This document shows, in pieces, positions 13,455 through 46,796 of a DNA stretch of 64,000 nt (the stretch's first letter is position 1; every line of letters begins with the position of its first letter). Source of the stretch: a virus (Duplodnaviria; Caudoviricetes); IMG/VR virus record IMGVR_UViG_3300027986_000001, positions 35,897 to 99,896 of that record; one strand, 5' to 3'. Below the pieces are notes generated by a model that made no database searches, was not told where the DNA came from, and saw only the letters and a program-made list of their open reading frames with translations. Both the position numbers and the translations under genes were made by a program.

Positions 13455-14000
13455 ATGGCTACCGCCAAAAATGCGATAACCAAACAGCAGCAAGCCGTGC
13501 CTCAATTGAAAGCCTCCGATTTCGAAGGCAACTGCGCTCGGGTGAATCATGTAATTCGAATCATTTGGGGCAAGGCGGTTTCCGCCGCCAATGCCGCCGC
13601 TGGCGCAACCGGCGCTCAAGGTCCAGCGGGGCCAGCCGGAGCGCCGGGAGGGCTGGGAACATACACCCAGATCACTCCCAGTGGAACCACGGCCACGCCC
13701 AGCCTGAGCGGAGGAAGTTGGAGCGTAACCGAAGTCCTCCTAAATAATTCTTCTCCTATCACGATCCAGAACGTGACCGGCGGCTCTACGTGCATGTTCT
13801 GGGTGCTCGTGCTTAAGCAGGACGCGACTGGGGGAAGGCAGGTAGCCTTCCCGGCCAGCGGATCTACCTATGCCGGAGTAACCGATCAGGTCGGAGCCTT
13901 AGACCAGACAGCCAGTACTTACTCGGTGCTAGTATTCGTAGTGAGGCCGGACGGAAAATCAATGCTATTGGGAGTCCCAATCAGCGGGGAGCCGTACTAA
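13455..14000 (+). CDS. Short tail fibre/spike-associated protein with collagen-like segment
   Basis: GATGAQGPAGPAGAPGG; C-terminal LKQDATGGRQVAFP motif seen in tail-fibre proteins. Confidence 0.6.
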   Translation: MATAKNAITKQQQAVPQLKASDFEGNCARVNHVIRIIWGKAVSAANAAAGATGAQGPAGPAGAPGGLGTYTQITPSGTTATPSLSGGSWSVTEVLLNNSSPITIQNVTGGSTCMFWVLVLKQDATGGRQVAFPASGSTYAGVTDQVGALDQTASTYSVLVFVVRPDGKSMLLGVPISGEPY

Positions 14001-15980: not shown

Positions 15981-16334
15981 ATGAAGAGAGCTATTTGGTT
16001 TTTGGCTGTTGCGACTATGCTTCGCGCCGAGGAGGTGAAGCCCACTCCGCCGGTAGAAACCACTTCCGAGGAGAACGCTATCCTCTACAAGATTGTCGCC
16101 GAGGTTAAGCTCTTGCAGGAGTACCAGAAAGAAGTCGCTCAGCAGCTATCCGAAAAGCAGAAGGAATGGGACGAGGAGCAGGCGGTAATCTTTGCGAGAG
16201 TCGGCAAGAAGGCGGACGAGGTTCAGCTTCAGGAAGATCCCAAATCCAAACCCCGCCCACACTGGGTAGTGGCCCAAATACCGCCTAAGCCAGAACCCCA
16301 AAAGGCCGCCCCTCCCGCTAGTGGAAATCGGTGA
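15981..16334 (+). CDS. Exported coiled-coil protein (possible fibre chaperone)
   Basis: SD AGGAGG; signal peptide MKRAIWFLAVATMLRA; heptad-like EQK-rich core; directly follows the fibre gene. Confidence 0.6.
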   Translation: MKRAIWFLAVATMLRAEEVKPTPPVETTSEENAILYKIVAEVKLLQEYQKEVAQQLSEKQKEWDEEQAVIFARVGKKADEVQLQEDPKSKPRPHWVVAQIPPKPEPQKAAPPASGNR

Positions 16335-21966: not shown

Positions 21967-21969
21967 CCA

Positions 21970-32825: not shown

Positions 32826-32834
32826 AGCAGCAGC

Positions 32835-32870: not shown

Positions 32871-32934
32871 CTTGCGGGATGCAATTGAAGAAAGCCGCTG
32901 TAGTCTCTACGATGTAGCGGAGAGAGGTGCGTCT

Positions 32935-33357
32935 ATGGCGCTGCCCGTAGCAGGCTTGGTCAATACATTACTCCCAACAAATCCGTTCCCGCTTGGCGTG
33001 ACGACGGTCAGCGGAACCCCCGGCACCGCCACTAAGATCACCCACAACTTTACGGACCTAGACGGGCGTTTCGTGAAATGGCTGTCCATTCGCGCATTGG
33101 ACACAAATACGGGACTGATCTACGTGCTCATCAACAGCGCCTACCCAATGCCGCCGCAGCCGACGTGGACGCTTCCCGGAGGGGGAACAACCAACGGAGC
33201 CGACACAACGAATTTTCTTAATGTTGTACAGGTCCTGTCCGCTGGTGAAACGTGGTCCATCCCCGCACAAATGCTCAACCAAATCCGAATCGGCCAATTC
33301 TGTGTGGATGGTAGCGTTGGCGGGGATAATGCCATTGCCAGCTTCTATGAGGCTTAA
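32935..33357 (+). CDS. Small beta-sandwich virion-associated protein (possible spike/fibre base)
   Basis: SD GAGG; IRALDTNTGLIYV..LSAGETWSI pattern; first gene of the fibre block. Confidence 0.5.
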   Translation: MALPVAGLVNTLLPTNPFPLGVTTVSGTPGTATKITHNFTDLDGRFVKWLSIRALDTNTGLIYVLINSAYPMPPQPTWTLPGGGTTNGADTTNFLNVVQVLSAGETWSIPAQMLNQIRIGQFCVDGSVGGDNAIASFYEA

Positions 33358-33389
33358 GAATGAGATACTTGCGAGTGTCCAATATTAGA

Positions 33390-33938
33390 CTAGTCTCGCC
33401 ATCTGTCGCCGAAGACGACGTGCTCGATGCCAGTTCTGCTGACTCCAAACATGGCAGCCAAATCTTTTTGGCGGTAGTTTCCGGTGGCGTACAGTGTGCG
33501 AATTTCAGCCACCTGCTTCAAGGTCAGTTTTGGATGGGATGTTTGCTCGCCGTATCTAATAAGCTCGGGATGCTTTTTCGTCCAATGCCTGTCGCCAGTG
33601 GCGTCATTGCGTCGGCCATGCTTCGTCGTGTCGCTATTGTTGTCGGAGTATGTTCCTTTATACAGATGCGTTGGGTTGCAACACGCGCGATTCGGTCCGC
33701 CTGGGCAGTCATGGCAAACGAGAAGCTCCCCAGGATCTTCGTCGTGCCACAGAGAGTAGGCAATACGGTGCGCCAGGAAGGATTTATTAACCAACCAGAT
33801 ATTTCCATAGCCGTCAGGCTGCAAGTGCGCCTTCCACGGCCAGCATTCATCCGGACCTCGCTTATCCACTCGCGACCAAAAACGCTTTCGTTGCTCGTAC
33901 GACAACTCTGGGATCGGCCTAAAATACTTGATAGCCAT
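33390..33938 (-). CDS. HNH homing endonuclease with C-terminal HTH (paralogue of 12864-13364)
   Basis: RFWSRVDKRGPDECWPWK..GYG..AHRIAY..CCNPTHLYKGT..DN. Confidence 0.9.
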   Translation of the reverse strand: MAIKYFRPIPELSYEQRKRFWSRVDKRGPDECWPWKAHLQPDGYGNIWLVNKSFLAHRIAYSLWHDEDPGELLVCHDCPGGPNRACCNPTHLYKGTYSDNNSDTTKHGRRNDATGDRHWTKKHPELIRYGEQTSHPKLTLKQVAEIRTLYATGNYRQKDLAAMFGVSRTGIEHVVFGDRWRD

Positions 33939-34035
33939 CTGATCTCACTCCAAGATCCTTTGGTTAGGCTCGGTGAAACGTTGAAGCGCTTCGCCGGGCC
34001 GCACCTTCAATTGTACCCAATCAACGGGGGAACCA

Positions 34036-37000
34036 GTGCGTAAGATCCGTTTATCGCTACTGTATTTTATTGTCCCGGTGTGCCTTTGGGGCCAAGGGTC
34101 TACTATCCCACGCGATCCTAGGTGGACTACGGTGGGAGAAGGTACCCTTGCCGCTCGTCCTAATTGCCCAAACCCTGCCGTGGCTGGGCGGAGCGTATAT
34201 TTGTGTCTTGGGGTGGGGTGTACTGCGGGGAATCGAATCCATTATTGTACGGCCACCGGATGGGACATTCAGGGAACAGCCGCCGGGTCCGGCATCACTA
34301 GCCTTAACGGGTTAACTGGGGCCTCCCAGACCTTCCAAAACGACACAAACGTAACGATCACGTCTTCGGCTAGCACTCATACCCTAGGCTGGAGCGGAAC
34401 CCTGGCCCCGGCTCGCGGCGGCACAGGCGTTGGCAACACGGCTACGTTGACGTTAGGCACCTCCAACGTCAATCTGGCAACGCTGGCGACCGGGATTATC
34501 CGCAATACAACCACCACAGGCGCTTTGTCTGTGGCTGAATTGTCCGGCGATGCCACTACCAGCGGCAGCAACGCTGTGACGGTCGTGGCCATCAATGGGA
34601 CGACGTTTACCGGAACAAACGGGCACTTGGTGAGCTTCGGTGCTGGAAATACGCCAGCCGATTCGGGAATAGTCGCAACAAATGTGGCCCTTCAAAGCAG
34701 CACACTCGCCCAGTTTGCTTCCACCACTTCGGCCCAGCTAGCTGGCGTCATCAGTAACGAAACAGGCAGCGGCGGAGGAGGAGTGCTGGTATTTAACAAC
34801 GGCCCCACCCTTATCGCTCCAATACTCGGAACTCCGGCTTCAGGCACGGCTACGAACCTGACCGGCCTTCCGCTCACCACCGGCGTAACCGGCATCTTGC
34901 CCACGGCGAATGGCGGCACGGGGATCAATAACACAGCAACGCTGACACTTGGCACCTCGAATCAGAATTGGGGTACCCTGGGCACCGGCATCGTAAAGAA
35001 CACAACCACCACCGGCGCTCTATCGGTGGCCGTACCTAACACGGACTTCTTGGCCGTGGCGAATCCAACGTTCACTGGGACGCTAAGCGGAGCTGCTGAG
35101 ACCTTGACGGGAACGCTAACCATTGCCGTCACCGGATCTACACAGTGTTTGCATGTCAACTCCTCTGGCGTGGTCAGCGGTACGGGGTCGGATTGCGGTT
35201 CGGGCGCTGGCGGGGTGAGCAGCTTGAATACTTTAACCGGGGCGCTGACCCTAGCCAACGCGAACGGCTTCACCTTCACGAATTCTGGAGGAAACACAAT
35301 CACTCCGTCGCTGGCAATGTCGTCCACGTACATCGCAGCCACACTTCCAGTGACTGTAAGTTTTGCCGGTGGCGTGGCGACGATCGCAGCGCCCACGTCC
35401 GTGAACTCATCGTCATCCATGACGAATCTGTCAGTGATGGCTGGCGCGGGTTCACAGAACGCTCAGGTGACCAACTGTGTAGTGGATTCTGGACTGAATA
35501 ATCTTTCCTGCAACGGAACTATCGCATCGGCGGTGGGTAGCGGCCTGGCTGGGCAGTATTTGCTTGCTGCTGGGACGCAGCCCTCCAGTTCATGGCCTGC
35601 AAGTCTGGCGGTTATCTTGGGGCCACCCTCAACCTCAGCGTCTTACGGATTAGTCCTTCCTACCGCTGCGCCGTCCGTTGCTAACTCCATAATGCTTTTC
35701 GCGGCGGCTTCCGGGACTCCCAATGACTCCACCGCAAGTTTCGCCAGTCCCGCACAGGCGAGTGTGGCTATATTCCCCACCGCAACACGTGTGGGGGATA
35801 TTATTTACTGCTCAGCGTGGGCTTCTGGGAATTGTACGACATGGAGCACCCTAGCCGGGAACAATTCCGGCACCCTATTTCTCTCTGAGAACGCTTCGGG
35901 CGTTCCTTCGTGGCAATCCAGCGCCTCCAGTCCGTCTCTGTCTTCTGTTACTGGGTCTACTTCGCAAGCTACCGGGACCGAATCGGCGGCGGGCGACAAT
36001 TACACATTCGCGGGCGTTGAAACCGGAGCGCTGCATTATTATCTAACCGCGCAAAATACCAGCAATTCGAATAATTCATCCGGTGCTCTACTTGTTACCA
36101 GCAACGGTACGGGCACGGCCCAGGTGCCCCTGCTGATTAACGAGACCGCCGTGTCGGGAGATTTTGTTGATATGTATACGGGCGGCACGGTTACCAACGG
36201 CGTGCTAAGTGGAGGAACCAAGATTTTCGCAGTGACATCGGCGGGGTCAGCTATTTCGGGAGACTCTTCGAATGCGGGGGCGTACTCAACTGCCTGTGGA
36301 AGCCAAGGGCTGACGACCCTTGGGAGCAACTCTGTTGGCGTCATAGGCCCCACTTCATGTAGTGGCCAGCATTACTTTGGCTTACCGGCGGCAGGAGCGG
36401 CTGCGAATCAATTCTTTCTGTATGCGGCAGAGTCGAGTGGCATATCGGCCCCGACTCTAACCACTTTCGCATCCACAAACCTCACGGATACCGCTAATTT
36501 AGTTCGCAATAACGGGACCAATGTAGCCGCAGCGGCGATGACTCTCAATATGGCCGCCGTCACAACAGCCAACGGGTTTCGCGTTCCCGTGCAAAGCGGC
36601 TGCACCGCCGGTTCCAATGGGACCGTTTGCTATGACTCAACCGCACTAAATACCCATATTCGTGCCAACGGAGCAGATGCTATCGCGGGCGCTTTCGCGA
36701 GTACTCCAACCAACGGAGACTTAGTGTCTGCGACTGTATCCGCAGGCAATGTGCTGCTGTCAGATGCGGGCATCGTGGCGGCCAACGTAATCACCGACAC
36801 GACCACAGCAACCGCAAACTACCTGATGAAGGGAAACGGAAGCGCCACGGTCATCGCCGGAGACCTTCAGGACGCATCGAATCAGTTAAGCAGCATTACC
36901 AGCACGCAGAGCGTAATCGTCAACGGAGGCTTGGATGCCTCCGCGAACTCCGTCCTGGGAGGATTGACCGTCCGGGGAGCAAATGAGACCGGGGCAGGTG

Positions 37001-39432
37001 GGGCTACTTCGGCTGGTGGATTCCTCCTTCTCTCTGGCGGCAGCAATGCCGCCACTAACGCAGCGAGCCAGGGCGGCAGCTACCAGATACTACCAGGTGC
37101 TTCTACGGGATCAACGCAGGGCTTACAGGGTCTCGGGATGCAGCAGTCCGTCTACGTGAAAGGGACCACATCCACGCAATGGTTTCTTGAGTGCGAGACT
37201 GCTGCCATGACAGTTGGTGACTGCGGAGCGTCACCCCAGAATTGGGTGGGCGTGGCTGAAAAGGTCGGCAGTAATATCGTACAAGTAACAATCAATGGGC
37301 AAACGCCGATCTCGGCTTCGGGTGCGGTCACGCTCGGTGACACTGTTTGCGCGGGTGCCACTGGAGGAAAAGTCACCGATAGCGGAGGAACGTCAACCTG
37401 CACGAATTCCCAAGGAGTAACGGTAGGTGTGGTGATGGCGACCTCGGGGGCCTGGACGTTACCAGATGGAACAAGTTTCACATCCACTACAACGTTGCCT
37501 GTTATCCAAATGAACACGGCCACATTGGCGACAACCGGTGGTGGCGGATCTGGCACGGTTAATAACTGCTCTACGGGTGGATCGTTAGCATACTACGCAG
37601 CAACTGGCACGACCGTCTCCTGTATCGGTGGAGACATCACGTTCAGTACTCATACGCTTACCTTTGGCTCTAGCGCCATCGTCAATATGAGCGGCATGGC
37701 AACTACGGGAGGCTTACAGATACCAACTGGAGCGGGAGCGGTACCTACCGCCGATGGGTTTATTGCTGACGATTCCACGGGACATAACTTAGTTTTTGGA
37801 TCTAACGGGGCGACTCTAATCGCGGCGGCCTTCAACGGAGCGCCGACCAATGCCGATCTAGCCTCCATTTCCGTTTCGAGCGGTCACGTTCTGCTAACTA
37901 GCACGGGGATCGGTACCGGCCTGATGGTTTCGGGAGGAAACTTGCAACTCAACACGGCGGTTGCTCTGACCAATGCCAATGCGGAGGCTGGTAAGCCCTG
38001 GTACTGCCTGGACACTTCCGGCACCCAAACCCTGACTTGCTCGCTAAGCGCAGCGACGGCCTTGACTGCATATACGACCGGACAAATCCTCACAATCGTG
38101 CCGACCGCAAATGGCAATGGAACCCTCCCGACCGTGAACATAGATTCGGTTGGCGCAAAATCCTGGTACATGCCAGACGGAGCCACGACTCCCCCTACCG
38201 GTGTCCTGTTCGCCAACTACCCCTATCCGAGCTTCTATAACGGCACGGCTTTTCAGATGGTGGGGCCGTGGCCCTCGGGCGGGTCTAACACCTACACGTC
38301 CGCTCATACGCTCGGCATGTCGGACAACAACCGTCTGGTCGTTATGAACTGCTCGTCGGCCTGCGCAGTGACCCTGCCGAATCCGCAGCCGCGCTCGGAC
38401 TTCAACGTTCGCATCGTGTCGATTGGGTCCTCGGTCGCGACCTTAACGCTTGGTTCGTCCATGACTTGGAACGGCGGTGGGTCGGTCCCAGCGCTGAACA
38501 GTTTCCGCGTGATTCCGGTCTTTGCCGACACAGCGACGAGCACCGACTACTACGGCGAGGCAACGCTGGTTGCTGGGACGGACATAACGCTAACGCCAAC
38601 AGCCACGGGACTCACAGTCGCCCTGACGAGCACAACGATAAATTTTAATGGAACTTCCGCCACCCTAGGCGGTAGCAACGTAAACGCCAACTGGACGACT
38701 GGCACGATCACAAACCTCCACGTCGCTCAGTTCACCGGAACGGCTGGTGAGATCCAGGACGGTGGGGTGCTGGGGACCGCCGCCGCTGCCGCCACAGCCT
38801 CAGCCTGCACAGCGTCCCAGTTCTCGCAAGGTTGGACGAGCGGCAGCAACAACTGCGGAAATACATTCGGCACTCAAAACTCCGTCGTCGGAAATATCAC
38901 GATGGCCGGGTCTAGCTCTGCGGGTGGATTTATTACGCTTGATGGAACGGGGGCGTCTCCGGGGTTCTCTACTATTTCGGTCAACACGGCGGGCACAACC
39001 CTGAACCTAGGCAGCACGAATGCCACATTGACGACGGGTGGCGCGCTCACGGTTGTGTCCTGTACCGGATGCGGGGGTGGAGTCGTTGGCAATTCCGATG
39101 TCACTGGTCAGTCCAGCTCTCAGTCGGCTGTGACCCTAGCCACAAGTCCAGCGGCGGGTCGGTATAAGATCAGCTACTACGCCGATCAGAGCGCTTTGTC
39201 CACGGTCGGGACTTGTTCTGTAACGTTTACTTTCAACTGGACTGATGGCACAGTGGCCCGCTCGCTGACAACTCAGCCATTAAGTTTGCAAACAACCGCT
39301 TCGGCTAATGCTTTCTTGTCTGGCGATGTACAGACGTACGTCGGTAGCGGAAATGTCACATACACTTCTACGGTAGCTGGCACGTGCTCTTCCGCGACGT
39401 ATGACGTTCATGTGTCTCTCGTTGGAGATTAA
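34036..39432 (+). CDS. Giant fibre-like protein (1798 aa) with signal peptide
   Basis: T/G/S/A-rich, many Cys; GITSLNGLTG, GVTGILPTANGGTG and GGSGTVN fibre motifs; internal duplications; leader MRKIRLSLLYFIVPVCLWG-Q. Confidence 0.75.
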   Translation: MRKIRLSLLYFIVPVCLWGQGSTIPRDPRWTTVGEGTLAARPNCPNPAVAGRSVYLCLGVGCTAGNRIHYCTATGWDIQGTAAGSGITSLNGLTGASQTFQNDTNVTITSSASTHTLGWSGTLAPARGGTGVGNTATLTLGTSNVNLATLATGIIRNTTTTGALSVAELSGDATTSGSNAVTVVAINGTTFTGTNGHLVSFGAGNTPADSGIVATNVALQSSTLAQFASTTSAQLAGVISNETGSGGGGVLVFNNGPTLIAPILGTPASGTATNLTGLPLTTGVTGILPTANGGTGINNTATLTLGTSNQNWGTLGTGIVKNTTTTGALSVAVPNTDFLAVANPTFTGTLSGAAETLTGTLTIAVTGSTQCLHVNSSGVVSGTGSDCGSGAGGVSSLNTLTGALTLANANGFTFTNSGGNTITPSLAMSSTYIAATLPVTVSFAGGVATIAAPTSVNSSSSMTNLSVMAGAGSQNAQVTNCVVDSGLNNLSCNGTIASAVGSGLAGQYLLAAGTQPSSSWPASLAVILGPPSTSASYGLVLPTAAPSVANSIMLFAAASGTPNDSTASFASPAQASVAIFPTATRVGDIIYCSAWASGNCTTWSTLAGNNSGTLFLSENASGVPSWQSSASSPSLSSVTGSTSQATGTESAAGDNYTFAGVETGALHYYLTAQNTSNSNNSSGALLVTSNGTGTAQVPLLINETAVSGDFVDMYTGGTVTNGVLSGGTKIFAVTSAGSAISGDSSNAGAYSTACGSQGLTTLGSNSVGVIGPTSCSGQHYFGLPAAGAAANQFFLYAAESSGISAPTLTTFASTNLTDTANLVRNNGTNVAAAAMTLNMAAVTTANGFRVPVQSGCTAGSNGTVCYDSTALNTHIRANGADAIAGAFASTPTNGDLVSATVSAGNVLLSDAGIVAANVITDTTTATANYLMKGNGSATVIAGDLQDASNQLSSITSTQSVIVNGGLDASANSVLGGLTVRGANETGAGGATSAGGFLLLSGGSNAATNAASQGGSYQILPGASTGSTQGLQGLGMQQSVYVKGTTSTQWFLECETAAMTVGDCGASPQNWVGVAEKVGSNIVQVTINGQTPISASGAVTLGDTVCAGATGGKVTDSGGTSTCTNSQGVTVGVVMATSGAWTLPDGTSFTSTTTLPVIQMNTATLATTGGGGSGTVNNCSTGGSLAYYAATGTTVSCIGGDITFSTHTLTFGSSAIVNMSGMATTGGLQIPTGAGAVPTADGFIADDSTGHNLVFGSNGATLIAAAFNGAPTNADLASISVSSGHVLLTSTGIGTGLMVSGGNLQLNTAVALTNANAEAGKPWYCLDTSGTQTLTCSLSAATALTAYTTGQILTIVPTANGNGTLPTVNIDSVGAKSWYMPDGATTPPTGVLFANYPYPSFYNGTAFQMVGPWPSGGSNTYTSAHTLGMSDNNRLVVMNCSSACAVTLPNPQPRSDFNVRIVSIGSSVATLTLGSSMTWNGGGSVPALNSFRVIPVFADTATSTDYYGEATLVAGTDITLTPTATGLTVALTSTTINFNGTSATLGGSNVNANWTTGTITNLHVAQFTGTAGEIQDGGVLGTAAAAATASACTASQFSQGWTSGSNNCGNTFGTQNSVVGNITMAGSSSAGGFITLDGTGASPGFSTISVNTAGTTLNLGSTNATLTTGGALTVVSCTGCGGGVVGNSDVTGQSSSQSAVTLATSPAAGRYKISYYADQSALSTVGTCSVTFTFNWTDGTVARSLTTQPLSLQTTASANAFLSGDVQTYVGSGNVTYTSTVAGTCSSATYDVHVSLVGD

Positions 39433-39439
39433 CGCTTCT

Positions 39440-41707
39440 ATGAAAACGCTTATTTGTATCGTCTTATTTTGCTTTTCTGCTACCGTCGCTTTGGCGCAGA
39501 ACACGGGTCTCGGGAATCTAGCTGCGCAGCCGCCAGCTATTAACCAGATCAGCAACAAGACCAATAACAGCGGCGGCACGAGTCCGATGACGCTGAACGC
39601 GCCAAATGGCAATGTGATCTCGGCTACGTACAGTTCTGGCGGCACCGCAACTGGATCTGGCACGTGCCTGGTAACGTTTATTAGTACCAGCGGCAATGGG
39701 GCGTCCGGTGTTGTCACGGTCACCTCGGGGACCATCGGCAGCACAATCACAATGCTATCTGGCGGCGGCGCTTACACGGCAGCACCCACAACAGCGACGT
39801 TAACGAACCAGACGGCTACGACGTGTTCCGGCACGGCGACCGTATCGACGACACTGGGTATTACGCAAGGTAACGTTCTCGGGCTAGCCTGCACGGTAAC
39901 TGGAGTCAGCAGTGAGACGTGGACGTTCCCGACCGGCTTCAATTTAATTACTGGGTCCACGGGGACGCCCAATCCGGGCATATCGACAGGAAGCAGTAAG
40001 TTGGCTTGGCAAGTAGGTTTAAAAACGGCCACGTCGAGTGAGCCTAGTACCTACTCAATAAGTTGGGGGACGAACGGTAACTTGGCGGATTGCGTTATCA
40101 TCAATGTTCCTAACGTATCAGCAACGGTCGATGGGGTGCCTGGGAGCGGTAGCGGCAACAATTCAGCACTAACCATCAGTTCAACAACGCCCGTTGGGGC
40201 GGGTGGTCTGCTGTTAACTATAGCAGGCATGGCGACAAACTCGGGAAAAATTCCCAATCTTATCAATCAGGCATGTGTGCCATCTACGGTAAATGTCGTC
40301 AACTCTTGCGCGCTAGCTTCTAGGGACAGTCTTGCGTGGTTTGCCACCACATGGGGATCGGCTACCGCACCGGCAGCAACAGCTAACTTTGGCATAGAAA
40401 CTTCTACAGGTTCGTCAAGCGATGACAATTTTGGTTTTCAGTTCGTGCTTCCGACGACACTCGGCAACAGTTCCCTGAACCCATTAAGCTCCAACTCGCC
40501 TCACTCCGTCTCGGATCTAAACGTTGTTGGAAATATGCGTGCGGCCGCCGTCTCTACGCCTTACGTTGTCATCGACAACGAGACATCGGGCGGCACACAG
40601 GGTTTATATGTGCGGAACGTGGCGGGCTGGCCGCTGCAATTTCTGGATATAAATTCTGCTGACGTGGCACAGCTATTTCCAAACAAGGACATAGGATTTT
40701 TAATTCTCGGCCCCGCAAACCAGTCGGCAACTAATGGTGCGTTTATTGTGACGAACGGATGCCTCGGTTGGGTTTCCATCGCCGGTGACGAGGACATCTG
40801 CGCCATTCACAGCGAACACCCCAACGTCATTACGTCGATAGCAACAGGCAGCACGACGGTCTTAACGCTCGCACGAAATCACGAATACCCAATCGGGATG
40901 CCGATTACGATCACGGGGGCCACGGGGACCGGATGTAGCGGAATGAATGCTCAGTGGATCGTAATCGCAGCGGCGGCAGGTACAGCAACAATCCCGTTTC
41001 CCTCAACCGGATGCACCTACGGAGCATCGAGTGCGTCAGTTGCGAGTGACGATTGGCACGCCGGATCTAATGGCCTAATCCCGGTATCGGCTCCAGGCGG
41101 TAACGTTGACATAAAAAACACCATTTTCGACCTACAGGCAAACCAATCGTTGGGGGTGACCTATAACAGCGCGATCAATCGCCCGTATCTTCAGGTAGAC
41201 AGCAGCGGCGTTCATGGCGCGTTCAACCGCGCGGTCGTTACGTCAAACTTCACGACGGCCTCCACATCGCTCGTTACAATCACCGGCCTGACCTGGACTA
41301 TTCCGGCCATTACCAATAACTCCCCAAGTCAGACGAGTTATTCTTTCCGTTGCCACATGACCTACTCGCAGGCAACAGCAGCGGCGGCTGATGCGATTGG
41401 CGTCCAGGCATCCACTACTGCCCCAACAAATCTGTATGCTCAAGGCATCGCCTACACCAACTTAACCACTGCTCCAACGAACGGCGTACTGCCAACACTC
41501 GCCAGCACAACGGCAACGAACGTGGTGGCATTCACTCCCGGCGCGGCAGGATCGATCGGCACCGTAGCCGATATGTTTCCCGTCGATCTCTGGGGGACGT
41601 TGGAACCCGGTGCGGGCAGTACAACTTTGAACATCATGATCCTGACCGGCAGCGGGTCGGACTCGATTACGGTTTACCGGGGGAGCTACTGTGAGTTGGA
41701 GATGTAA
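39440..41707 (+). CDS. Fibre/adhesin-like protein with signal peptide
   Basis: Start reassigned to MKTLICIVLFCFSATVALA-Q; SGGGAYTAAPT and KTATSSEPSTYSISW beta-domain motifs. Confidence 0.7.
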   Translation: MKTLICIVLFCFSATVALAQNTGLGNLAAQPPAINQISNKTNNSGGTSPMTLNAPNGNVISATYSSGGTATGSGTCLVTFISTSGNGASGVVTVTSGTIGSTITMLSGGGAYTAAPTTATLTNQTATTCSGTATVSTTLGITQGNVLGLACTVTGVSSETWTFPTGFNLITGSTGTPNPGISTGSSKLAWQVGLKTATSSEPSTYSISWGTNGNLADCVIINVPNVSATVDGVPGSGSGNNSALTISSTTPVGAGGLLLTIAGMATNSGKIPNLINQACVPSTVNVVNSCALASRDSLAWFATTWGSATAPAATANFGIETSTGSSSDDNFGFQFVLPTTLGNSSLNPLSSNSPHSVSDLNVVGNMRAAAVSTPYVVIDNETSGGTQGLYVRNVAGWPLQFLDINSADVAQLFPNKDIGFLILGPANQSATNGAFIVTNGCLGWVSIAGDEDICAIHSEHPNVITSIATGSTTVLTLARNHEYPIGMPITITGATGTGCSGMNAQWIVIAAAAGTATIPFPSTGCTYGASSASVASDDWHAGSNGLIPVSAPGGNVDIKNTIFDLQANQSLGVTYNSAINRPYLQVDSSGVHGAFNRAVVTSNFTTASTSLVTITGLTWTIPAITNNSPSQTSYSFRCHMTYSQATAAAADAIGVQASTTAPTNLYAQGIAYTNLTTAPTNGVLPTLASTTATNVVAFTPGAAGSIGTVADMFPVDLWGTLEPGAGSTTLNIMILTGSGSDSITVYRGSYCELEM

Positions 41708-41747
41708 ACCGCGACAAAAGTAACCAGCCCAAATCGTCCTACTCAGT

Positions 41748-44700
41748 ATGCACAGACTACTACCGCTCTTTTTGTTCTTATCGCCCGCCTGGGCGACTCA
41801 GTACTACGTCGCGACCACCGGCTCCGACTCTAACACCGGTACATCCGCATCGCCCTTCCTGACTATTTTTAAAGCGAATTCAGTTGTCGTAGCCGGCGAT
41901 ACGGTCAACGTCCTCCCAGGCGTCTACCCGGCGAATCTGACAATGTGCCCGAGCACATTAAACAACAATGCCGTCACGGTAACGGCAGCGGGCACTTCGG
42001 GCAACCCGATCGTCTTTCAATCGACCGTCTACCACGGAGCGATCCTAGACGCCCAGATGCTCTGCCACTCCTACTTTCAACTCCACACGACTACCAACTA
42101 CATCACGATCAAGAACTTCGTGATCAAGAACGCCGTATGGGCGGGGATCGGGGATGCCGGGCTTGGGAACAGCGTCATCTCTGGAAACGATATTGGGTTC
42201 ATTGGCAACCTGGATGACGAATCACTGAGCGGCGGCCATGTCGGCATCCTGACCAATTCCACAGAGAGCAACGATATCCTTGACGGAAATTTCATTCATG
42301 ATATCGGGCGAACGAACAGTACTTGCGGCGGGGTCACTTGCAGCCCGAGAGACCAGAACATTTACTCCGAGGGAGCTAATGACATCATTGTTAACAACAT
42401 TGTCAGCCTAAGCGGGCAATCCGGCTGGGGGGTAGCGGTTAAGGTTGGCGGGCCTTCGTCGGTTGGAAACTGGATAATCCGGTACAACACCTTCTACGGC
42501 GCGGTGGCCAACGGGCGCGAAGGGCAAATAGTGATTGGCGCAGGCGATGGGTCGGGTGTAAGTACCTTCGACATTGAAGACAATATTTTCCTGAATGGAC
42601 TCGGGCCAGGGGCGATTGTCTTGTGCGACGTAGCACTCAGCGGTACGATGACCATCTCCAATAACCTCGCCTTCGGAAACGGAACTTCCGAACTATTCGA
42701 TAGCGGTACAGCTACATGCGGGGCGGGATCAACCGGAGCGGGTGGAGTCACTCAGGCCGGAAACTCGGTTGCCGATCCAAAGCTAGCTAATCCGGCGCAG
42801 GGTCAGTTTCAGTTGTTGTATACGAGTCCGGCTATAAACGCAGGGACGACTTATTCTCCGGCCTCCCCCGATTACAATGGTACCGCCCGCCCAACCGGGA
42901 CCGCTTACGATTACGGCGCGATTGAGTTTTTGCCAGTTTCTCTGTCTATCACCAGTCCTACGGCCAGCCAGAGCATTTCAGGATTCACTGGATTCTCGTT
43001 TCAGGTTTCCACCTCCGGGCTCGGCGCTTCGGCGATTAATCGTGTATGTCAAACAGTAGATGCCTACCCCGCCCCGACAGATCATAGTAACTGTGCTTTG
43101 TCGCCGCCCTGGAGCCTGAACTGGAACACTTACGGCGTATTGAATGGGGCACATCAGGTCGTTGCTACCGCCTACGATGCGGCGGGTAACGTGCTTGCCA
43201 CTTCTGCCGCAGTGTCGTTCACTGTCGCGAATGCTTGGCCGTGCTCCTGGACGCCGGGATTTACCGTCACGCCCAGTACCTCGGTGACCTCCAATTGGTC
43301 CGGTTCGGTTACGCTTACTCTTGCCGTAACCGGAGCAAGCGCTAGCGACAACAAACAACTTCTTACTTTCATCGACGGGGTTCAGACACACAGCACCACC
43401 AAGACTGCTACATCCACAAATATCGTCGTGGACACAACCCGCTGGAACAACGGCCCGCACGTTGTTGCCGCACGCGAGGACGACATGGCGGCGACATGCA
43501 CCACTTACTCGGATAGCTACGAAGGCGCGATAGGCGAGTGGTCGGCGACGGTAAACTTTGCCAACGACGGAATTGGTGGTGACGGACCAGTTGTGCCGAT
43601 GGAGCTTCGAGAGAATGCTCACGAGGTGTTCCTGGCCCCCGCTGGCACGTTCACCCTTACCCCTAGCCTCATCAATACGGACGGAACAACGGCAACCGGA
43701 ATAACATTCGACTACTACTCGCAGAACACTGCGGTAGCTACGGTCGGCTCCGCAACCGGATCGACGAGCGTGCTCACTGCGGTGGCCACCGGCAACGCTC
43801 AGATCCGCACGATGGCAGAGGTCAGCAATGGGACAGATCTAGCGAGTGCTACCGGACAAACGCATCAGTTCTCTTCATCGTCCGTGCCAGCAACGGACTC
43901 AATGGTTGGGCAAGTCGTTAACATCAAAACCAACACCGGAGGATGGGTCTCTGGACCGTATGAAATTGGATCTGTTGACGTAAACGGCAATAAATTCACA
44001 ACCACGGGCACGCCATGCCCCGGCGGCGCGACGACGGCTTGTACGGGCGGAAGTTTCGCCACGGGGCCGTCACGCACAACGTGGGCAATGGTAGCACCGA
44101 CGAACGTGCTTCCTCACTTTGGCTTGGATGGCTCGCTCCTGACTGCGTACAATCCCTCTAACTCGTTCTTCTTGGCGGAAGCATTCAGATCGGGTGATTT
44201 ATTTTCAGATCAAGTCTACACTTCCCAAATCCCAAATGCCCATGCAAACCTCGGGACAATGGACGACTATCTGGCTCTGGGATTCAATACCGTGGAGATG
44301 GGGACGATGGCAGCCAATAATTGCAGCGGAAGCGTATGCATGAATGGCCAGAACCCAACCACCTTTGCCGCGAATCAAAACACGTTCTTCACCGCCAATG
44401 CGGCCTTGATGGCTCCGTGGCCAAATGCCCGCATATTCGGCATCATGGACTCGATCACGACAGATGCCTACACCTGGGTCAACCCTACGGGCACAGGGGC
44501 TTCTCCGCCTTACGTCACGACCACTTTCCAGGACATGGCCAACGCTGGCTACGTTGCCGCTTCACTCGCCGACGAGGTAGATGGAAAATTTGGCTTTGCG
44601 AATCTGCAAGGGCCAGTAACGTTCGCTTCCTCCGCTGCACAGTTTGGGCTCAGCAGCATCGTAGCCGCGAGTCACACATGCACTGTTCACACCTTGGGCG

Positions 44701-46796
44701 GATTCAGTTTTGGGTTTGGCGGCCCTTCCGCATTCATCATCCACGGCGCGACAACCAGCGGATTCAATAGCTCCGTTGGAACTACTTTCAGCCCATCATC
44801 GGCGGGGAGTGCCACCGGACCGACAACCTGGACTTTCTCTTGCCCAGCGGTAGCCGACGGAACATACAACACCTCAACCGATGGTAGTGGATGCCCCGGC
44901 ACAACGAACTGCTTAACTATCGAGCCATACGCCCGCCAAGGTTGGTTTGGAAGCCTCTATATTCCCTACACTGCCTGGTCGCAGTGGCGAGGCTGGCAAA
45001 CGGCAGTAACTGGCTATACGGCGACAGCGGGGAGCGTACTTGGAGATACCCAGGCAAATATTCCTTCCATCAACAATTGGGGACCTAACAATACTCAGAC
45101 TTTGGGCGGCGTAACGAACGTGGCGGACTTTGCCGACACCTATTACGCGCACTCAAGTTTTGAAAATTACCTAGGCAGTCGGGCATCGACCTGGACGCTG
45201 ACAACTGACAGCGCCAACTATGCCAATAGTACCGAGTTGGCATACAAGGCGCGAACATTCTACGGTACAGGCTTCAACTCAACCAAACCGTGGACCGCGA
45301 TAGTCACCGGGACGCCGGTAACGTTTGGATTTCAAGGTTACACAGTGTCGAGCGTGTCGTGTGTGAATGATGTTTGCACATTTCCCGGAGGCCACAAGAT
45401 ACCTGTTGTCATTCCCGGCGCTACGCGGCTTTGGATTTTGGGTTCCAGCAACAGCGCCTATAATACGAACTTTGTTGTGAACTACATCCTCTCGCCAACT
45501 CAGCTATCTGTGTCATTGGCCGCGACGGACTTCAATCCCGGCTGCACAGGTAACAGTGGCACGATCACTTTCCAAAACGGAGATACAAAAGCGGTATCTA
45601 CTACAGCAAACTCCATCTGCGCAACCGGCAACAAGTCTTCGATTGGCGGCGACTCCCTGACATACCTGGGAAGCGCGGACAACAACATACCCAAACATCG
45701 GGGGCAAACCTTCACGCTGGCGGGCGTGAATGGCACTGGCAACGGCACCTGGACCACGCGCACGTTCTTCTACTCGTCCGAGAATCTGGATCTAGCACAA
45801 GACGGAAACGGTTCGGCTTCGTCCGTCATGCAATACCGGGAGTTGCCCACCGGCACGACAACCGGAGGAACAGCAACCATTGTGGCCGACAACACCTTTG
45901 TGCGCGGGAGAAACGGGTTCAAGGTTTCCGCAGCAAACTCCGGTGGCAGCCAAACATCTCTTTTAAACCATCCAGGGTTTGGGTTTGTCAACGCTTGGGA
46001 GATCGCCCTCCTAGGCGGGGCGGGGCTACGACACTACCAAATGGATTGGGGTTGGCAGAGCTACAACCCGCACGCAATTTCACTTTCAAATGGCGGCAAG
46101 GCGAAAGGCAACTGGGTAGGGCTGGCGCAAAGTACGATCAGTAAATTCCAGGACAACACAGTTACAGTGAATCAGTTGACTTCTCATCCGCATTTCGAGA
46201 CGGGAACAGCGGTGCCACAGGCCCATGCGGTGGGCGAGGCCAATCTGTTCATAAATGCCCACCTAAAATACATCTTCCAGCCACGCCTAAACAGCCCCGA
46301 CTACGGAGACAAGATCGACTGTTCAGCGCGGGCCGGTTCCTACGGCGACATCATGCTGTGTGTGAATGGAACAGATGGCCCGCAACTACGCACGTTTAGC
46401 CTATCACCTTATCTCCAAAGCGGCCAAAACATCGTGCGATATGTCGTGGACCAGCAGGGCATAATCATGAGTATAATTTCCGCTGGAACTACCTCGGACA
46501 CCCTTACCCTCCAGCCCAACCAAGCCGTAGCCTATGTGTTTCCGGCCTCGTTCGCTACCGAGTTGAACCAGCCGGTAATGAGATTCAATCTATCCGACAT
46601 ACCGAATGCGGCCAAGATCGCTTTTCGCTATTCCTACGACAGATACTTGCTCGACTGGCCAACGAACAATGTCACGGTTTGTACGTCCACTTGCACTCTG
46701 CCGGTAAACCGGAATATCGGGACAGTATACTTTCGGATGACCTATCTGGATTCGAGCAACAACGTGCTAGCAACTAGCGACGTGCAGACGATGTAG
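41748..46796 (+). CDS. Secreted multidomain protein: right-handed beta-helix, Ig-like domains, possible glycoside-hydrolase-like region
   Basis: Leader MHRLLPLFLFLSPAWA; YYVATTGSDSNTGT..PFLTI beta-helix start; SPAINAG..YDYGAIEF; WNT..NGAHQVVATAYDAAGN Ig domain. Confidence 0.75.
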   Translation: MHRLLPLFLFLSPAWATQYYVATTGSDSNTGTSASPFLTIFKANSVVVAGDTVNVLPGVYPANLTMCPSTLNNNAVTVTAAGTSGNPIVFQSTVYHGAILDAQMLCHSYFQLHTTTNYITIKNFVIKNAVWAGIGDAGLGNSVISGNDIGFIGNLDDESLSGGHVGILTNSTESNDILDGNFIHDIGRTNSTCGGVTCSPRDQNIYSEGANDIIVNNIVSLSGQSGWGVAVKVGGPSSVGNWIIRYNTFYGAVANGREGQIVIGAGDGSGVSTFDIEDNIFLNGLGPGAIVLCDVALSGTMTISNNLAFGNGTSELFDSGTATCGAGSTGAGGVTQAGNSVADPKLANPAQGQFQLLYTSPAINAGTTYSPASPDYNGTARPTGTAYDYGAIEFLPVSLSITSPTASQSISGFTGFSFQVSTSGLGASAINRVCQTVDAYPAPTDHSNCALSPPWSLNWNTYGVLNGAHQVVATAYDAAGNVLATSAAVSFTVANAWPCSWTPGFTVTPSTSVTSNWSGSVTLTLAVTGASASDNKQLLTFIDGVQTHSTTKTATSTNIVVDTTRWNNGPHVVAAREDDMAATCTTYSDSYEGAIGEWSATVNFANDGIGGDGPVVPMELRENAHEVFLAPAGTFTLTPSLINTDGTTATGITFDYYSQNTAVATVGSATGSTSVLTAVATGNAQIRTMAEVSNGTDLASATGQTHQFSSSSVPATDSMVGQVVNIKTNTGGWVSGPYEIGSVDVNGNKFTTTGTPCPGGATTACTGGSFATGPSRTTWAMVAPTNVLPHFGLDGSLLTAYNPSNSFFLAEAFRSGDLFSDQVYTSQIPNAHANLGTMDDYLALGFNTVEMGTMAANNCSGSVCMNGQNPTTFAANQNTFFTANAALMAPWPNARIFGIMDSITTDAYTWVNPTGTGASPPYVTTTFQDMANAGYVAASLADEVDGKFGFANLQGPVTFASSAAQFGLSSIVAASHTCTVHTLGGFSFGFGGPSAFIIHGATTSGFNSSVGTTFSPSSAGSATGPTTWTFSCPAVADGTYNTSTDGSGCPGTTNCLTIEPYARQGWFGSLYIPYTAWSQWRGWQTAVTGYTATAGSVLGDTQANIPSINNWGPNNTQTLGGVTNVADFADTYYAHSSFENYLGSRASTWTLTTDSANYANSTELAYKARTFYGTGFNSTKPWTAIVTGTPVTFGFQGYTVSSVSCVNDVCTFPGGHKIPVVIPGATRLWILGSSNSAYNTNFVVNYILSPTQLSVSLAATDFNPGCTGNSGTITFQNGDTKAVSTTANSICATGNKSSIGGDSLTYLGSADNNIPKHRGQTFTLAGVNGTGNGTWTTRTFFYSSENLDLAQDGNGSASSVMQYRELPTGTTTGGTATIVADNTFVRGRNGFKVSAANSGGSQTSLLNHPGFGFVNAWEIALLGGAGLRHYQMDWGWQSYNPHAISLSNGGKAKGNWVGLAQSTISKFQDNTVTVNQLTSHPHFETGTAVPQAHAVGEANLFINAHLKYIFQPRLNSPDYGDKIDCSARAGSYGDIMLCVNGTDGPQLRTFSLSPYLQSGQNIVRYVVDQQGIIMSIISAGTTSDTLTLQPNQAVAYVFPASFATELNQPVMRFNLSDIPNAAKIAFRYSYDRYLLDWPTNNVTVCTSTCTLPVNRNIGTVYFRMTYLDSSNNVLATSDVQTM

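What the first reader, a model, noticed from the sequence alone, without database searches (positions are those of the whole stretch)
32935..46796. Candidate new system: phage fibre/adhesin proteins exported through Sec
Seen: three consecutive very large proteins (1798, 755, 1682 aa) begin with classic signal peptides (basic N-region, hydrophobic core, small-residue cleavage site). Two have Gln at the predicted +1 position and all are Cys-rich. The first contains trimeric-fibre shaft motifs (GVSSLNTLTGAL, GILPTANGGTG) shared with the tail-module fibre at 14000. The block is led by a small signal-less beta-sandwich protein and has its own promoter, separate from the tail module. Known: tailed-phage virion proteins normally fold and assemble in the cytoplasm without signal peptides, whereas disulfide formation is periplasmic. 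Inference: fibres are exported, oxidised in the periplasm and dock on virions at or after lysis, possibly via the 32935 protein. Alternatively they are phage-encoded host-surface adhesins.
Basis: partly seen in the sequence, partly recalled or inferred. Interest (0 to 1): 0.85.

Follow-up and report, generated by a model that had tools for sequence, protein, structure and literature searches.

The report
Phage fibre proteins carrying export signals
A complete 100-kb soil phage, probably of Acidobacteriota, puts host-style secretion signals on three giant fibre-like and sugar-cutting proteins and on its tail-module fibre, as many uncultured relatives do. This suggests its host-recognition gear matures outside the cytoplasm, which is not the textbook route for tailed phages.

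Summary
The core observation holds. ORFs 34036-39432, 39440-41707 and 41748-46796 begin with Sec/signal-peptidase-I-type leaders. Two expose Gln at +1.

- The first ORF has an equally good start 32 codons downstream.
- The proteins are not Cys-rich. Their Cys come in even numbers and are locally paired only in part (clear in P0001, borderline in P0003, absent in P0002).
- A minus-strand HNH gene separates the small leading gene from the block.

The genome is a complete, integrase-less, 99.9-kb podophage. The third protein is a beta-helix plus glycosidase-like relative of secreted proteins at the edge of Terriglobia/Bryobacteraceae exopolysaccharide clusters. The first is a mosaic phage fibre. 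The second is an orphan.

Leaders ending in A|Q are conserved in homologues. These include the tail-module fibre of syntenic phages, fibres downstream of a myophage baseplate, and a Peptidase_S74 tail fibre. Gln is also the commonest +1 residue in a Terriglobia genome.

In cultured Cellulophaga phage phi10:1, four such leader-bearing proteins are annotated as found in virions by MS/MS.

Export is likely (about 0.8). Docking on virions at lysis is plausible but unproven (about 0.4). The main rival is free secreted enzymes or adhesins.

This scan has noted the same pattern in at least 330 other genomes. I found no published description of it.

The parts
32935..33357 (+). 140-aa leaderless small beta-rich protein, first gene after the strand switch; link to the block unproven
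   Evidence: GGAGAGAGG lies 7 nt before the ATG. No Pfam or PHROG hit. ESM Atlas: features score 0.95 to ~115-aa viral hypothetical clusters, and structure TM 0.78-0.82 by target. No similarity to the 181-aa fibre partner at 13455.
33390..33938 (-). HNH-type endonuclease gene that interrupts the block; the + strand ORF 33360-34043 is its shadow
   Evidence: Its translation resembles that of the minus-strand ORF at 12864-13364 (N-terminus printed) by eye; neither was run against family profiles. A 14-bp palindrome copy sits at 33377-33390.
34036..39432 (+). P0001, 1798 aa: leader (residues 1-19, Gln at 20), small Cys-loop domain, fibre shaft repeats, conserved central module (915-1230), C-terminal beta-sandwich knob (about 1680-1798). 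Alternative start GTG 34132.
   Evidence: Mosaic similarity of 48-67% over modules to P0020-P0031 and others. 64% identity over 50 aa to an annotated tail fiber protein. AF2 gives two confident beta domains in an otherwise low-confidence chain, with compact BFVD matches to uncultured-phage proteins and fibre/C1q-like rows. 30 Cys in the mature chain, 93% with a neighbour within 25 residues, p 2e-4.
39440..41707 (+). P0002, 755 aa: leader of 19 residues with A-L-A before Gln; orphan body
   Evidence: The only database hit is itself. No match in the phage collection, IMG/VR, Pfam, PHROG or PDB. Atlas model is poor. 12 Cys in the mature chain.
41748..46796 (+). P0003, 1682 aa: leader (1-16), right-handed beta-helix (from residue 17), Ig-like region, then a ~910-aa glycosidase-like module (44058-46793)
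   Evidence: PF22842 scores 39.5 bits against a cut-off of 25.2. Residues 18-91 match the mature N-terminus of PL9 lyase 5olq, E 3e-9. 38-50% identity over 72-77% of its length to P0005-P0012. AF2 plus VIA-align: Z 10-12 to GH30/GH39/GH79 barrel-plus-sandwich enzymes, from a model of mean pLDDT 59.8.
14000..15979 (+). P0004, tail-module fibre with leader (outside the finding's range; needed to read it)
   Evidence: Its ATG overlaps the stop of the upstream gene. Leader and first mature residues are conserved in P0051, P0053 and P0054. Synteny with L010 and L011. 10 Cys in the mature chain, locally paired (p 0.027).
13455..14000 (+). 181-aa leaderless collagen-like small fibre protein, conserved partner just upstream of the leader-bearing fibre
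   Evidence: 62% identity to the L010 191-aa protein (precomputed PF26209). Weak similarity (E 2e-4) to the 185-aa protein that follows the baseplate wedge in L003.
15981..16334 (+). 117-aa leader-bearing coiled-coil-like small protein downstream of the fibre; counterpart with leader in L010
48742..49482 (-). 246-aa collagen-like protein with a leader (start at the internal Met of the 306-aa ORF)
   Evidence: Collagen Pfam scores 30.3 bits against a cut-off of 27.2. PHROG tail-fibre and collagen-like minor tail families. Leader seen.

Best explanation
WHAT IT IS
The block encodes three extracytoplasmic proteins of a virulent, complete ~100-kb podophage whose host is probably a Terriglobia/Bryobacteraceae acidobacterium.

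MECHANISM
- Each protein is made with a host-type Sec leader.
- It is threaded unfolded through SecYEG and cut by signal peptidase I. This leaves Gln, probably cyclised to pyroglutamate, on two of the three.
- It folds in the periplasm with local disulfides.

THE THREE PROTEINS
- P0001 is a mosaic trimeric fibre/adhesin of phage type.
- P0002 is an orphan.
- P0003 is a beta-helix plus glycosidase-like enzyme, related over its whole architecture to secreted proteins at the edge of host exopolysaccharide (EPS) clusters. It most likely binds and cuts that polymer.

FATE
Together with the leader-bearing tail-module fibre and a collagen-like protein, they are the phage's glycan-recognising gear. 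I think it slightly more likely than not among the options that they end up on virions. They would meet the cytoplasmically built particle when the holin opens the inner membrane, before the envelope bursts. Before that they may already loosen the EPS.

SHOWN: leaders, their conservation, homology, contexts, Cys pairing.
INFERRED: export, cleavage, pyroglutamate, enzyme activity, docking.

ODDS: export about 0.8; glycan-directed role of P0003 about 0.7; virion association about 0.4.
For: LEADERS
- Leaders read directly. For P0003 the conserved domain starts right after the cut site.
- Leaders are conserved in homologues: 10/13 of the P0003 family, 17/31 of P0001 homologues, 23/46 of long P0004 homologues. 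Gln is at +1 in most.
- Gln is also the commonest +1 residue in 400 kb of a Terriglobia MAG: 11/39 heuristic leaders against a 3.8% background.

CYSTEINES
- Even Cys counts in all four mature chains. Local pairing in P0001 (p 2e-4) and P0004 (p 0.027), borderline in P0003 (p 0.053), absent in P0002; of the leaderless controls only the zinc-domain glycosyltransferase fusion reaches p 0.048.

PHAGE CONTEXT
- A leader-bearing fibre keeps its place between the nozzle/hub and the GNAT plus ejection genes in three syntenic elements.
- Six or seven consecutive leader proteins follow a myophage baseplate.
- A Peptidase_S74 / PHROG tail-fibre protein has a leader.
- The complete genome has no integrase or resolvase. 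It has no leaderless large receptor-binding candidate other than the nozzle and a 181-aa fibre.
- The P0001 central module is almost absent from 301 Terriglobia genomes, so it is phage-borne.

P0003
- Four of four chromosomal homologues lie beside GT4/FkbM/Wzx/Wzy clusters.
- Genome hits are Terriglobia and Bryobacteraceae MAGs.

PRECEDENTS
- In cultured Cellulophaga phage phi10:1, gp091-gp094 are annotated 'structural protein, experimental MS/MS' and all begin with a leader followed by Gln.
- Bdellovibrio exports and displays S74-type tail-fibre-like proteins with signal peptides (PMC10769870).
Against: - No tailed phage has been shown to export virion parts.
- No trained predictor or experiment was available here.
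- The P0001 start is ambiguous.
- The five leader-bearing proteins share no common domain after the leader that could serve as a virion anchor.
- The domain after the P0004 leader is a mobile repeat found internally in other proteins, not a fixed anchor.
- The block lies 18 kb from the tail module, among oppositely oriented replication genes.
- P0003's relatives work as chromosomal secreted proteins and need no virion.
- The phi10:1 evidence is a database annotation from another host phylum. Secreted proteins could co-purify with virions.
- Later checks of similar findings in this scan priced the virion-docking reading near 10%.
Confidence: 0.4

Rival explanations
1. Free secreted accessory proteins. 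The three proteins are exported but never join the virion. They would act on the infected cell's envelope and exopolysaccharide (EPS) in one of three ways: thinning the matrix so that progeny escape, destroying receptors on debris, or blocking superinfection. Alternatively they coat the cell as adhesins.
For: - P0003 shares its whole architecture with chromosomal secreted proteins of EPS clusters.
- The block is outside the tail module.
- No common anchor domain is present.
- Porphyromonas phages encode leader proteins that follow the Q-rule; these were read as host-surface modifiers (PMC10367356).
- WceF is a bacterial exported tailspike-like EPS enzyme (PMC7949094).
- Bdellovibrio MAT fibres are cell-surface adhesins.
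Against: - About 14% of a virulent genome would be spent on non-virion fibres.
- P0001 modules are phage-borne and mosaic, like receptor-binding proteins.
- Leader-bearing fibres occupy canonical fibre positions and include S74 and PHROG tail-fibre families.
- The genome would be left with almost no receptor-binding candidate.
- phi10:1 leader proteins are annotated as virion proteins.
Confidence: 0.35
2. The leaders are not used for the functional pool. Either the true or an additional start lies after the leader, or late-infection conditions keep most copies in the cytoplasm. Fibres would then assemble on virions in the ordinary way, and the leader would be a relic of gene capture or serve only a minor exported isoform.
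For: - P0001 has an equally good downstream GTG with AGGTGG, and the public gene call uses it.
- P0003 may have inherited its leader with the captured gene.
Against: - P0002 and P0003 have no alternative start near the leader.
- Leaders and Gln at +1 are conserved across dozens of diverged phage proteins, which argues for selection.
- Cys pairing in P0001 and P0004 fits oxidative folding.
Confidence: 0.15
3. Uncleaved signal-anchors. The hydrophobic N-termini would tether the fibres to the inner membrane, or serve as a hydrophobic plug into the tail, rather than acting as cleaved leaders.
For: The hydrophobic cores are strong. P0001 has Leu at -3, a weaker cleavage motif.
Against: - Canonical small residues at -3/-1, followed by Gln, occur in nearly all homologues. 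The same pattern occurs in bona fide host secreted proteins.
- Leader sequences are not conserved beyond their physico-chemical pattern, unlike a docking element.
Confidence: 0.05

Closest known systems
Leader-bearing structural proteins gp091-gp094 (and pectate lyase gp095) of cultured Cellulophaga phage phi10:1, GenBank KC821618
   Same: A run of distal tail-module genes, each with a Sec-type leader and Gln at +1, ending in a pectate-lyase-fold enzyme. Four are annotated as found in virions by MS/MS.
   Different: Siphophage of Bacteroidota with much smaller proteins. No sequence similarity to P0003. The leaders are not discussed in any paper I could search. Cleavage and export are untested.
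Bdellovibrio bacteriovorus MAT fibres (Caulton et al. 2024, PMC10769870)
   Same: Trimeric tail-fibre-like proteins, some with a Peptidase_S74 chaperone. They have signal peptides, mosaic tips and lectin-like ends, and are shown to be surface displayed.
   Different: Chromosomal genes of a predatory bacterium, not phage genes. They have a conserved ~130-aa domain after the leader, which was not looked for here.
Pantoea stewartii WceF (PMC7949094) and periplasmic EPS-processing glycosidases such as PslG (GH39; from my own knowledge)
   Same: Exported tailspike-like or GH-A-type enzymes encoded in exopolysaccharide (EPS) clusters that trim the polymer. The chromosomal relatives of P0003 sit in just such clusters.
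   Different: WceF uses Tat, is bacterial and is a beta-helix only. P0003 is phage-encoded, uses a Sec-type leader and joins a beta-helix to a glycosidase-like module.
Classical phage tailspikes and fibres (P22 gp9, K1F endosialidase, T5 pb1; multi-depolymerase phages such as PhiK64-1; from my own knowledge)
   Same: Beta-helix depolymerases, S74 chaperones, shaft repeats, mosaic exchange and blocks of several receptor-binding proteins.
   Different: They have no leader. They have an N-terminal particle-binding domain and assemble in the cytoplasm.
Q-rule signal-peptidase-I substrates of Bacteroidetes (PMC5837995) and Q-rule proteins of Porphyromonas phages (PMC10367356)
   Same: Gln exposed at +1 after the leader. 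Phage proteins copy the host's rule.
   Different: Described as specific to Bacteroidetes and, in phages, for small proteins of unknown function in temperate phages. Here the hosts are Acidobacteriota-like and the proteins are giant fibres.
PblA/PblB of Streptococcus mitis phage SM1 (from my own knowledge; alluded to in PMC10367356)
   Same: Phage tail-fibre proteins that also act as host-surface adhesins.
   Different: No leader. They reach the surface through holin/lysin-mediated permeabilisation.

Membership tests
Sec / signal peptidase I signal peptide | Positively charged n-region followed by an uncharged hydrophobic core of about 8-15 residues | tested here: met
   Direct reading of all three N-termini. 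A crude heuristic flags P0002 and P0003 at a strict threshold.
Sec / signal peptidase I signal peptide | Small residues at -3 and -1 of a cut site 3-7 residues after the core | tested here: met
   P0002 has A and A. P0003 has A and A. P0001 has L and G, which is weaker.
Sec / signal peptidase I signal peptide | The leader lies within the translated ORF (correct start codon) | tested here: inconclusive
   Secure for P0002 and P0003. P0001 has two equally plausible GTG starts, and the public gene call skips the leader.
Sec / signal peptidase I signal peptide | Call by a trained predictor, or demonstrated export and cleavage | not testable with these tools
   No SignalP or DeepTMHMM here, and no experiment.
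Q-rule substrates (Gln at +1, pyroglutamate) | Gln immediately after the cut site | tested here: met
   P0001, P0002 and P0004 meet it. P0003 has Thr then Gln. Homologues mostly have Gln. Host-like genome: 11/39. Pyroglutamate itself cannot be tested here.
Right-handed beta-helix, Pel9A-like (PF22842) | Pfam match above the gathering score | tested here: met
   39.5 bits against 25.2, residues 17-92 of P0003. PL9 lyase 5olq, E 3e-9.
Clan GH-A glycoside hydrolase (GH30/GH39/GH79-like) | (beta/alpha)8 barrel with an appended beta-sandwich | tested here: inconclusive
   VIA-align Z 10-12 and Foldseek E down to 6e-6, all to such enzymes. The model has mean pLDDT 59.8 and TM-scores are low.
Clan GH-A glycoside hydrolase (GH30/GH39/GH79-like) | Catalytic acid/base and nucleophile Glu on strands 4 and 7 | not tested
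   N77/E80 and D172/E173 of the module are invariant but were not mapped onto the barrel.
Terriglobia EPS-cluster secreted protein family (P0005-P0016) | Similarity over the whole ~1250-aa body | tested here: met
   38-50% identity over 72-77% of P0003 for P0005-P0012. P0015 also shares the N-terminal beta-helix architecture.
Terriglobia EPS-cluster secreted protein family (P0005-P0016) | Location at the edge of a GT4/FkbM/Wzx/Wzy cluster | tested here: not met
   The phage copy lies between phage genes. Four of four chromosomal members are in such clusters.
Tailed-phage tail fibre / receptor-binding protein | Fibre shaft repeats or domains shared with recognised tail fibres | tested here: met
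   For P0001: 64% identity over 50 aa to an annotated tail fiber protein, repeats shared with leaderless fibres that have classical N-termini, and fibre/C1q-like fold matches. No PHROG hit for P0001-P0003 themselves.
Tailed-phage tail fibre / receptor-binding protein | N-terminal particle-binding domain | tested here: inconclusive
   None recognised, and the phage's leader-bearing proteins share no common post-leader domain. An unknown anchor cannot be excluded.
Tailed-phage tail fibre / receptor-binding protein | Gene within the tail module | tested here: not met
   The block is 18 kb from the tail module. This feature is met by P0004 and by homologues in L003, L010 and L011.
Tailed-phage tail fibre / receptor-binding protein | Presence in purified virions | not testable with these tools
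   There is only an analogy to the phi10:1 annotation.

The most novel reading that the evidence does not exclude
Tailed phages of Acidobacteriota (and, by the phi10:1 precedent, Bacteroidota) route their receptor-binding fibres and depolymerases through the host Sec system. The proteins are cut by signal peptidase I to a Gln/pyroglutamate N-terminus that follows the host's own rule. They are disulfide-bonded in the periplasm and attached to cytoplasmically built particles only in the interval between holin triggering and envelope rupture. This would be a second, extracytoplasmic branch of tailed-phage assembly.
Probability: 0.33. Interest if true: 0.9.

Novelty: new variant of a known kind. 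Interest (0 to 1): 0.68.

Why it matters
All parts of tailed-phage virions are held to fold and assemble in the cytoplasm. Absence of signal peptides is even used as an argument that a protein is of phage origin (PMC6199706).

If receptor-binding proteins are exported, several things follow:
- Virion assembly has a periplasmic branch.
- Fibre folding can use disulfides and periplasmic chaperones or modification.
- Lysis timing becomes part of assembly.
- Annotation pipelines that discard leader-bearing proteins as non-structural will miss the host-range determinants of soil phages.

The case is directly testable in cultured Cellulophaga phages.

Independently of that question, two other results stand:
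- P0003 links a phage depolymerase candidate to a specific exopolysaccharide (EPS) cluster family of Terriglobia. That is a host-range clue for phages of a phylum with very few cultured viruses.
- The Gln-at-+1 preference seen in a Terriglobia genome would extend the 'Q-rule' beyond Bacteroidetes.

Tried and rejected
SEARCHES THAT FOUND NOTHING USEFUL
- tblastn of P0001-P0004 and the nozzle against 50,697 deposited phages gave nothing or tiny motif hits.
- IMG/VR pattern scans with P0002, the P0003 N-terminus, the nozzle and P0004 found no relatives.
- The first genome-contig scan failed because the alignment was too diverse.
- PDB sequence searches were uninformative except for the P0003 N-terminus.
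- No + strand promoter-like site lies before the block, and site counts are below chance.
- Literature searches for leader-bearing tail fibres found no description. The Tunturi Acidobacteriota virus paper does not mention signal peptides or fibres. The Holmfeldt 2013 paper behind the phi10:1 annotation is not held.

WEAK RESULTS
- The AF2 model of the P0001 C-terminal half is mostly low confidence (pLDDT 47.9).
- A glutaminyl cyclase (PF05096) was found in one of three candidate host genomes and not in the phage, which is uninformative.

CLAIMS REJECTED
- 'Cys-rich'.
- Overall homology of P0001 to the fibre at 14000.
- Similarity of the 32935 product to the conserved small fibre partner.
- Homology of P0003 to phi10:1 gp095.
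- The lipoprotein reading of the P0004 leader, because the Cys is not conserved in homologues.

NOT REPRODUCED
- The precomputed PF26209 label could not be reproduced with the local Pfam.

CAVEAT
- My signal-peptide heuristic is crude. It misplaces some cut sites and lets through some membrane proteins, so the counts are approximate.

Full report
THE GENOME
- The window is the right-hand 64 kb of a single 99,896-bp contig with a 127-bp terminal overlap. IMG/VR classes the record as having direct terminal repeats, with CheckV completeness 100%.
- It is a tailed phage. It has two SU10-type adaptor genes, a P22-like portal, DnaB, RecT, helicases and many HNH genes.
- No tyrosine integrase or resolvase is present, so it looks virulent.
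- It has no relative among 50,697 deposited phages.

THE OBSERVATION
ORFs 34036-39432 (P0001), 39440-41707 (P0002, 755 aa) and 41748-46796 (P0003) are contiguous on the + strand, with gaps of 7 and 40 nt. Each begins with a basic n-region, a 12-15-residue uncharged hydrophobic core and a small-residue cut motif. Gln is at +1 in P0001 and P0002; P0003 has Thr then Gln.
- P0003: the leader is unavoidable. The beta-helix Pfam match, and a match to the mature N-terminus of a solved PL9 lyase, both begin at residue 17-18, and there is no other start.
- P0002: the public gene call uses the leader start.
- P0001: the start is ambiguous. GTG 34036 (GGGGGA 4 nt upstream) and GTG 34132 (AGGTGG 6 nt upstream) are about equally good, and the public call takes the downstream one.

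Several side claims fall.
- The proteins are not Cys-rich: 1.55-1.85% against 1.65% for the crude proteome.
- Only the SL(N/D)xLTGA motif is shared with the fibre at 14000, and BLASTP finds no overall similarity.
- The gene between the small leading ORF and P0001 is a minus-strand HNH endonuclease. The + strand 227-aa ORF is its shadow.
- No sigma-70-like + strand promoter is detectable.

One thing does hold about the cysteines.
- Every predicted mature chain has an even Cys count (30, 12, 26, and 10 in the tail-module fibre).
- Local pairing is significant in P0001: 93% have a neighbour within 25 residues, permutation p 2e-4.
- It is significant in the tail-module fibre (p 0.027), borderline in P0003 (p 0.053) and absent in P0002.
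- Among the leaderless large proteins only the glycosyltransferase fusion with its zinc-binding domain shows it weakly (p 0.048). The three ejection-like proteins have no Cys at all.

WHAT THE PROTEINS ARE
P0003
- About 1250 residues of its C-terminal part are 38-50% identical to a family of ~1250-aa proteins (P0005-P0012). Ten of thirteen family members listed start with leaders, mostly ending A|Q or G|Q.
- Four of four members whose context I could read sit at the edge of a conserved glycan cluster. The cluster has five or six GT4 glycosyltransferases, FkbM methyltransferases, an epimerase, acyltransferase_3, Wzx and Wzy.
- One member (P0015) also has the leader plus beta-helix N-terminus, as P0003 does.
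- Genome hits are Terriglobia and Bryobacteraceae MAGs. The full-length module is patchy: 2 of 301 Terriglobia genomes.
- An AF2 model of the last 912 residues is mediocre (pLDDT 59.8). Its best matches are uniformly barrel-plus-sandwich glycosidases (GH30, GH39, GH79, including an Acidobacterium beta-glucuronidase), at Z 10-12.
- So P0003 is best read as a captured, or commonly descended, exopolysaccharide (EPS)-processing enzyme. It is analogous to WceF or PslG.

P0001
- It is a mosaic. A central module (915-1230) and a C-terminal ~130-aa domain are 55-67% identical to parts of other giant proteins on 13-126-kb contigs.
- Its shaft repeats recur in annotated tail fibres and in leaderless fibres with classical N-termini.
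- Its C-terminal domain is modelled confidently as a beta-sandwich, and the model as a whole matches fibre, collagen-like and C1q-like viral proteins.
- The central module is almost absent from Terriglobia chromosomes: 2 weak hits in 301.

P0002 has no detectable relative.

THE WIDER PATTERN
Leaders are the rule among relatives.
- The tail-module fibre P0004 (14000-15979) also has one. Its closest homologues conserve both the leader pattern and the first mature residues (Gln-Thr-Ala/Gly-His).
- Their contexts are syntenic with this phage: a ~190-aa leaderless collagen-like protein, the leader fibre, small leader proteins, GNAT, then three large ejection-like proteins. On a 91.6-kb contig an SU10-type adaptor and a hub protein lie upstream.
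- In a 72-kb myophage contig, six or seven consecutive leader-bearing proteins, including a P0001 homologue of 2562 aa, follow the baseplate wedge genes.
- In a 126-kb contig, a protein that passes Pfam Peptidase_S74 and hits PHROG tail-fibre families at 5e-22 starts with a leader and Gln. So do its neighbours.

By a crude heuristic, 17/31 P0001 homologues and 23/46 long P0004 homologues have leaders. Nearly all have Gln at +1 by eye. In 400 kb of the Terriglobia MAG with the closest P0003 relative, Gln is the commonest +1 residue: 11/39 against a 3.8% background. The phage leaders therefore copy a host preference. That 'Q-rule' has been described only for Bacteroidetes (PMC5837995).

In this complete genome every fibre-like protein has a leader: P0004, P0001-P0003 and a collagen-like protein at 48742-49482. 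No capsid, portal, adaptor, nozzle or ejection protein has one. The only leaderless receptor-binding candidates are the 1082-aa nozzle and the 181-aa small fibre. The other large structural-region protein is a GT4-GT4-C-methyltransferase fusion.

HOW IT MOST LIKELY WORKS
Export through Sec, and cleavage, are inferred from four things:
- the leaders;
- their conservation under divergence;
- the host-like +1 residue;
- the Cys pairing in P0001 and P0004.
I put this at about 0.8.

The fate of the exported proteins is open.

For a virion role:
- fibre-family homology;
- canonical gene positions in relatives;
- mosaicism typical of receptor-binding proteins;
- the lack of other candidates;
- a precedent that I checked. 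In cultured Cellulophaga phage phi10:1, gp091-gp094 are annotated 'structural protein, based on experimental MS/MS'. All four begin with a leader followed by Gln, and the next gene is a leader-bearing pectate lyase.

Docking is physically feasible. This rests on established knowledge, not on tests here: tailspikes and fibres attach to particles in vitro, and canonical holins open micron-scale inner-membrane holes seconds before the envelope ruptures. That would give a closed vessel in which periplasmic fibres and cytoplasmic particles mix.

Against a virion role:
- no shared anchor domain;
- the block's position away from the tail genes;
- P0003's chromosomal relatives, which need no virion;
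- the absence of any experiment.

I put virion association at about 0.4. Free secreted enzymes or adhesins get about 0.35, unused leaders or alternative starts about 0.15, and signal-anchors about 0.05.

COMPARISON WITH WHAT IS KNOWN
- The nearest bacterial analogues are Bdellovibrio MAT fibres, which are leader-bearing S74-type fibres shown on the cell surface, and WceF, a Tat-exported tailspike-like EPS enzyme.
- The nearest phage report in print is that of Porphyromonas phage proteins obeying the Q-rule, read as host-surface modifiers.
- Classical tailspikes and fibres lack leaders.
- I found no paper describing leader-bearing tail fibres as such.
- This scan has noted the pattern in at least 330 other genomes. 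Later checks there kept the observation but priced the virion-docking reading low (of that index is my).
- My own tests add four things: the Acidobacteriota setting, the EPS-cluster link, the S74 fibre with a leader, and the host +1 Gln preference.

VERDICT
It is a new variant of known kinds (phage receptor-binding proteins and depolymerases; secreted fibre adhesins). The decisive experiments are straightforward in cultured relatives.

Noticed in passing
window 34036 vs 34132: P0001 has two in-frame GTG starts with comparable Shine-Dalgarno sequences, 32 codons apart. One includes the leader and one skips it. A dual-start arrangement giving an exported and a cytoplasmic isoform is conceivable.
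   Followed up: partly
window 33377-33390 and six other sites (17056, 27500, 29713, 48732, 51701, 57867): The 14-bp quasi-palindrome GTMHAATATTDKAC occurs 7 times in the window against 0 expected. One copy lies exactly between the stop of the 32935 gene and the 3' end of the HNH gene. Another lies at the 3' end of the collagen-like gene.
   Followed up: partly
window 48742-49482 (-): A collagen-like protein (Pfam Collagen 30.3 bits) has a Sec-type leader. Just after the leader it has a Cys-loop motif (C-P-D/N ... Y-I/L-x-C) that resembles the one after the P0001 leader.
   Followed up: partly
G000 32872-36255 (window -3024 to 359) and window 356-1054: A 1127-aa fusion of two GT4 glycosyltransferases with a sugar C-methyltransferase, followed by a GT2, lies between the head and tail genes. 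The phage carries glycan-building as well as glycan-cutting functions. They might glycosylate virion proteins or alter the host polymer.
   Followed up: no
window 18090-23787: The three large ejection-like proteins (606, 683 and 605 aa) contain no cysteine at all. The leader-bearing fibres have even Cys counts, with local pairing in P0001 and P0004.
   Followed up: partly
L014-L033 (Terriglobia MAG G001, contig 10, 1-400000): Gln is the most frequent residue after predicted signal-peptidase-I sites (11/39 heuristic leaders). This hints that the Bacteroidetes 'Q-rule' also holds in part in Terriglobia. A plant-type glutaminyl cyclase was found in one of three related MAGs.
   Followed up: partly
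L010 1-7400 vs 7400-20148: The contig with the closest relative of the tail-module fibre carries bacterial genes (BipA-like, PAS-SpoIIE, prepilin-type N-methyl proteins) directly next to the phage tail and ejection genes. No nozzle or adaptor lies between. It may be a prophage junction, a phage-derived island or a chimeric assembly.
   Followed up: no
L003 7550-9985: The + strand frame of a fibre-block gene stays open for 600 nt upstream of the called start and begins with a leader. It is overlapped by a minus-strand AP2-domain endonuclease gene. This may be a mobile endonuclease inserted in, or overlapping, a fibre gene.
   Followed up: no
G000 32023-32838: A Thg1-family tRNA-His guanylyltransferase (Pfam 107 bits) is encoded just before the glycosyltransferase fusion.
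   Followed up: no
window 15981-16334 (+), 16318-16737 (-), 48268-48723 (-), 49588-50397 (+): Several small proteins also have leaders or lipoprotein-like N-termini. The 117-aa one after the fibre has a leader-bearing counterpart in L010. They could be periplasmic fibre-assembly helpers or lysis proteins.
   Followed up: partly
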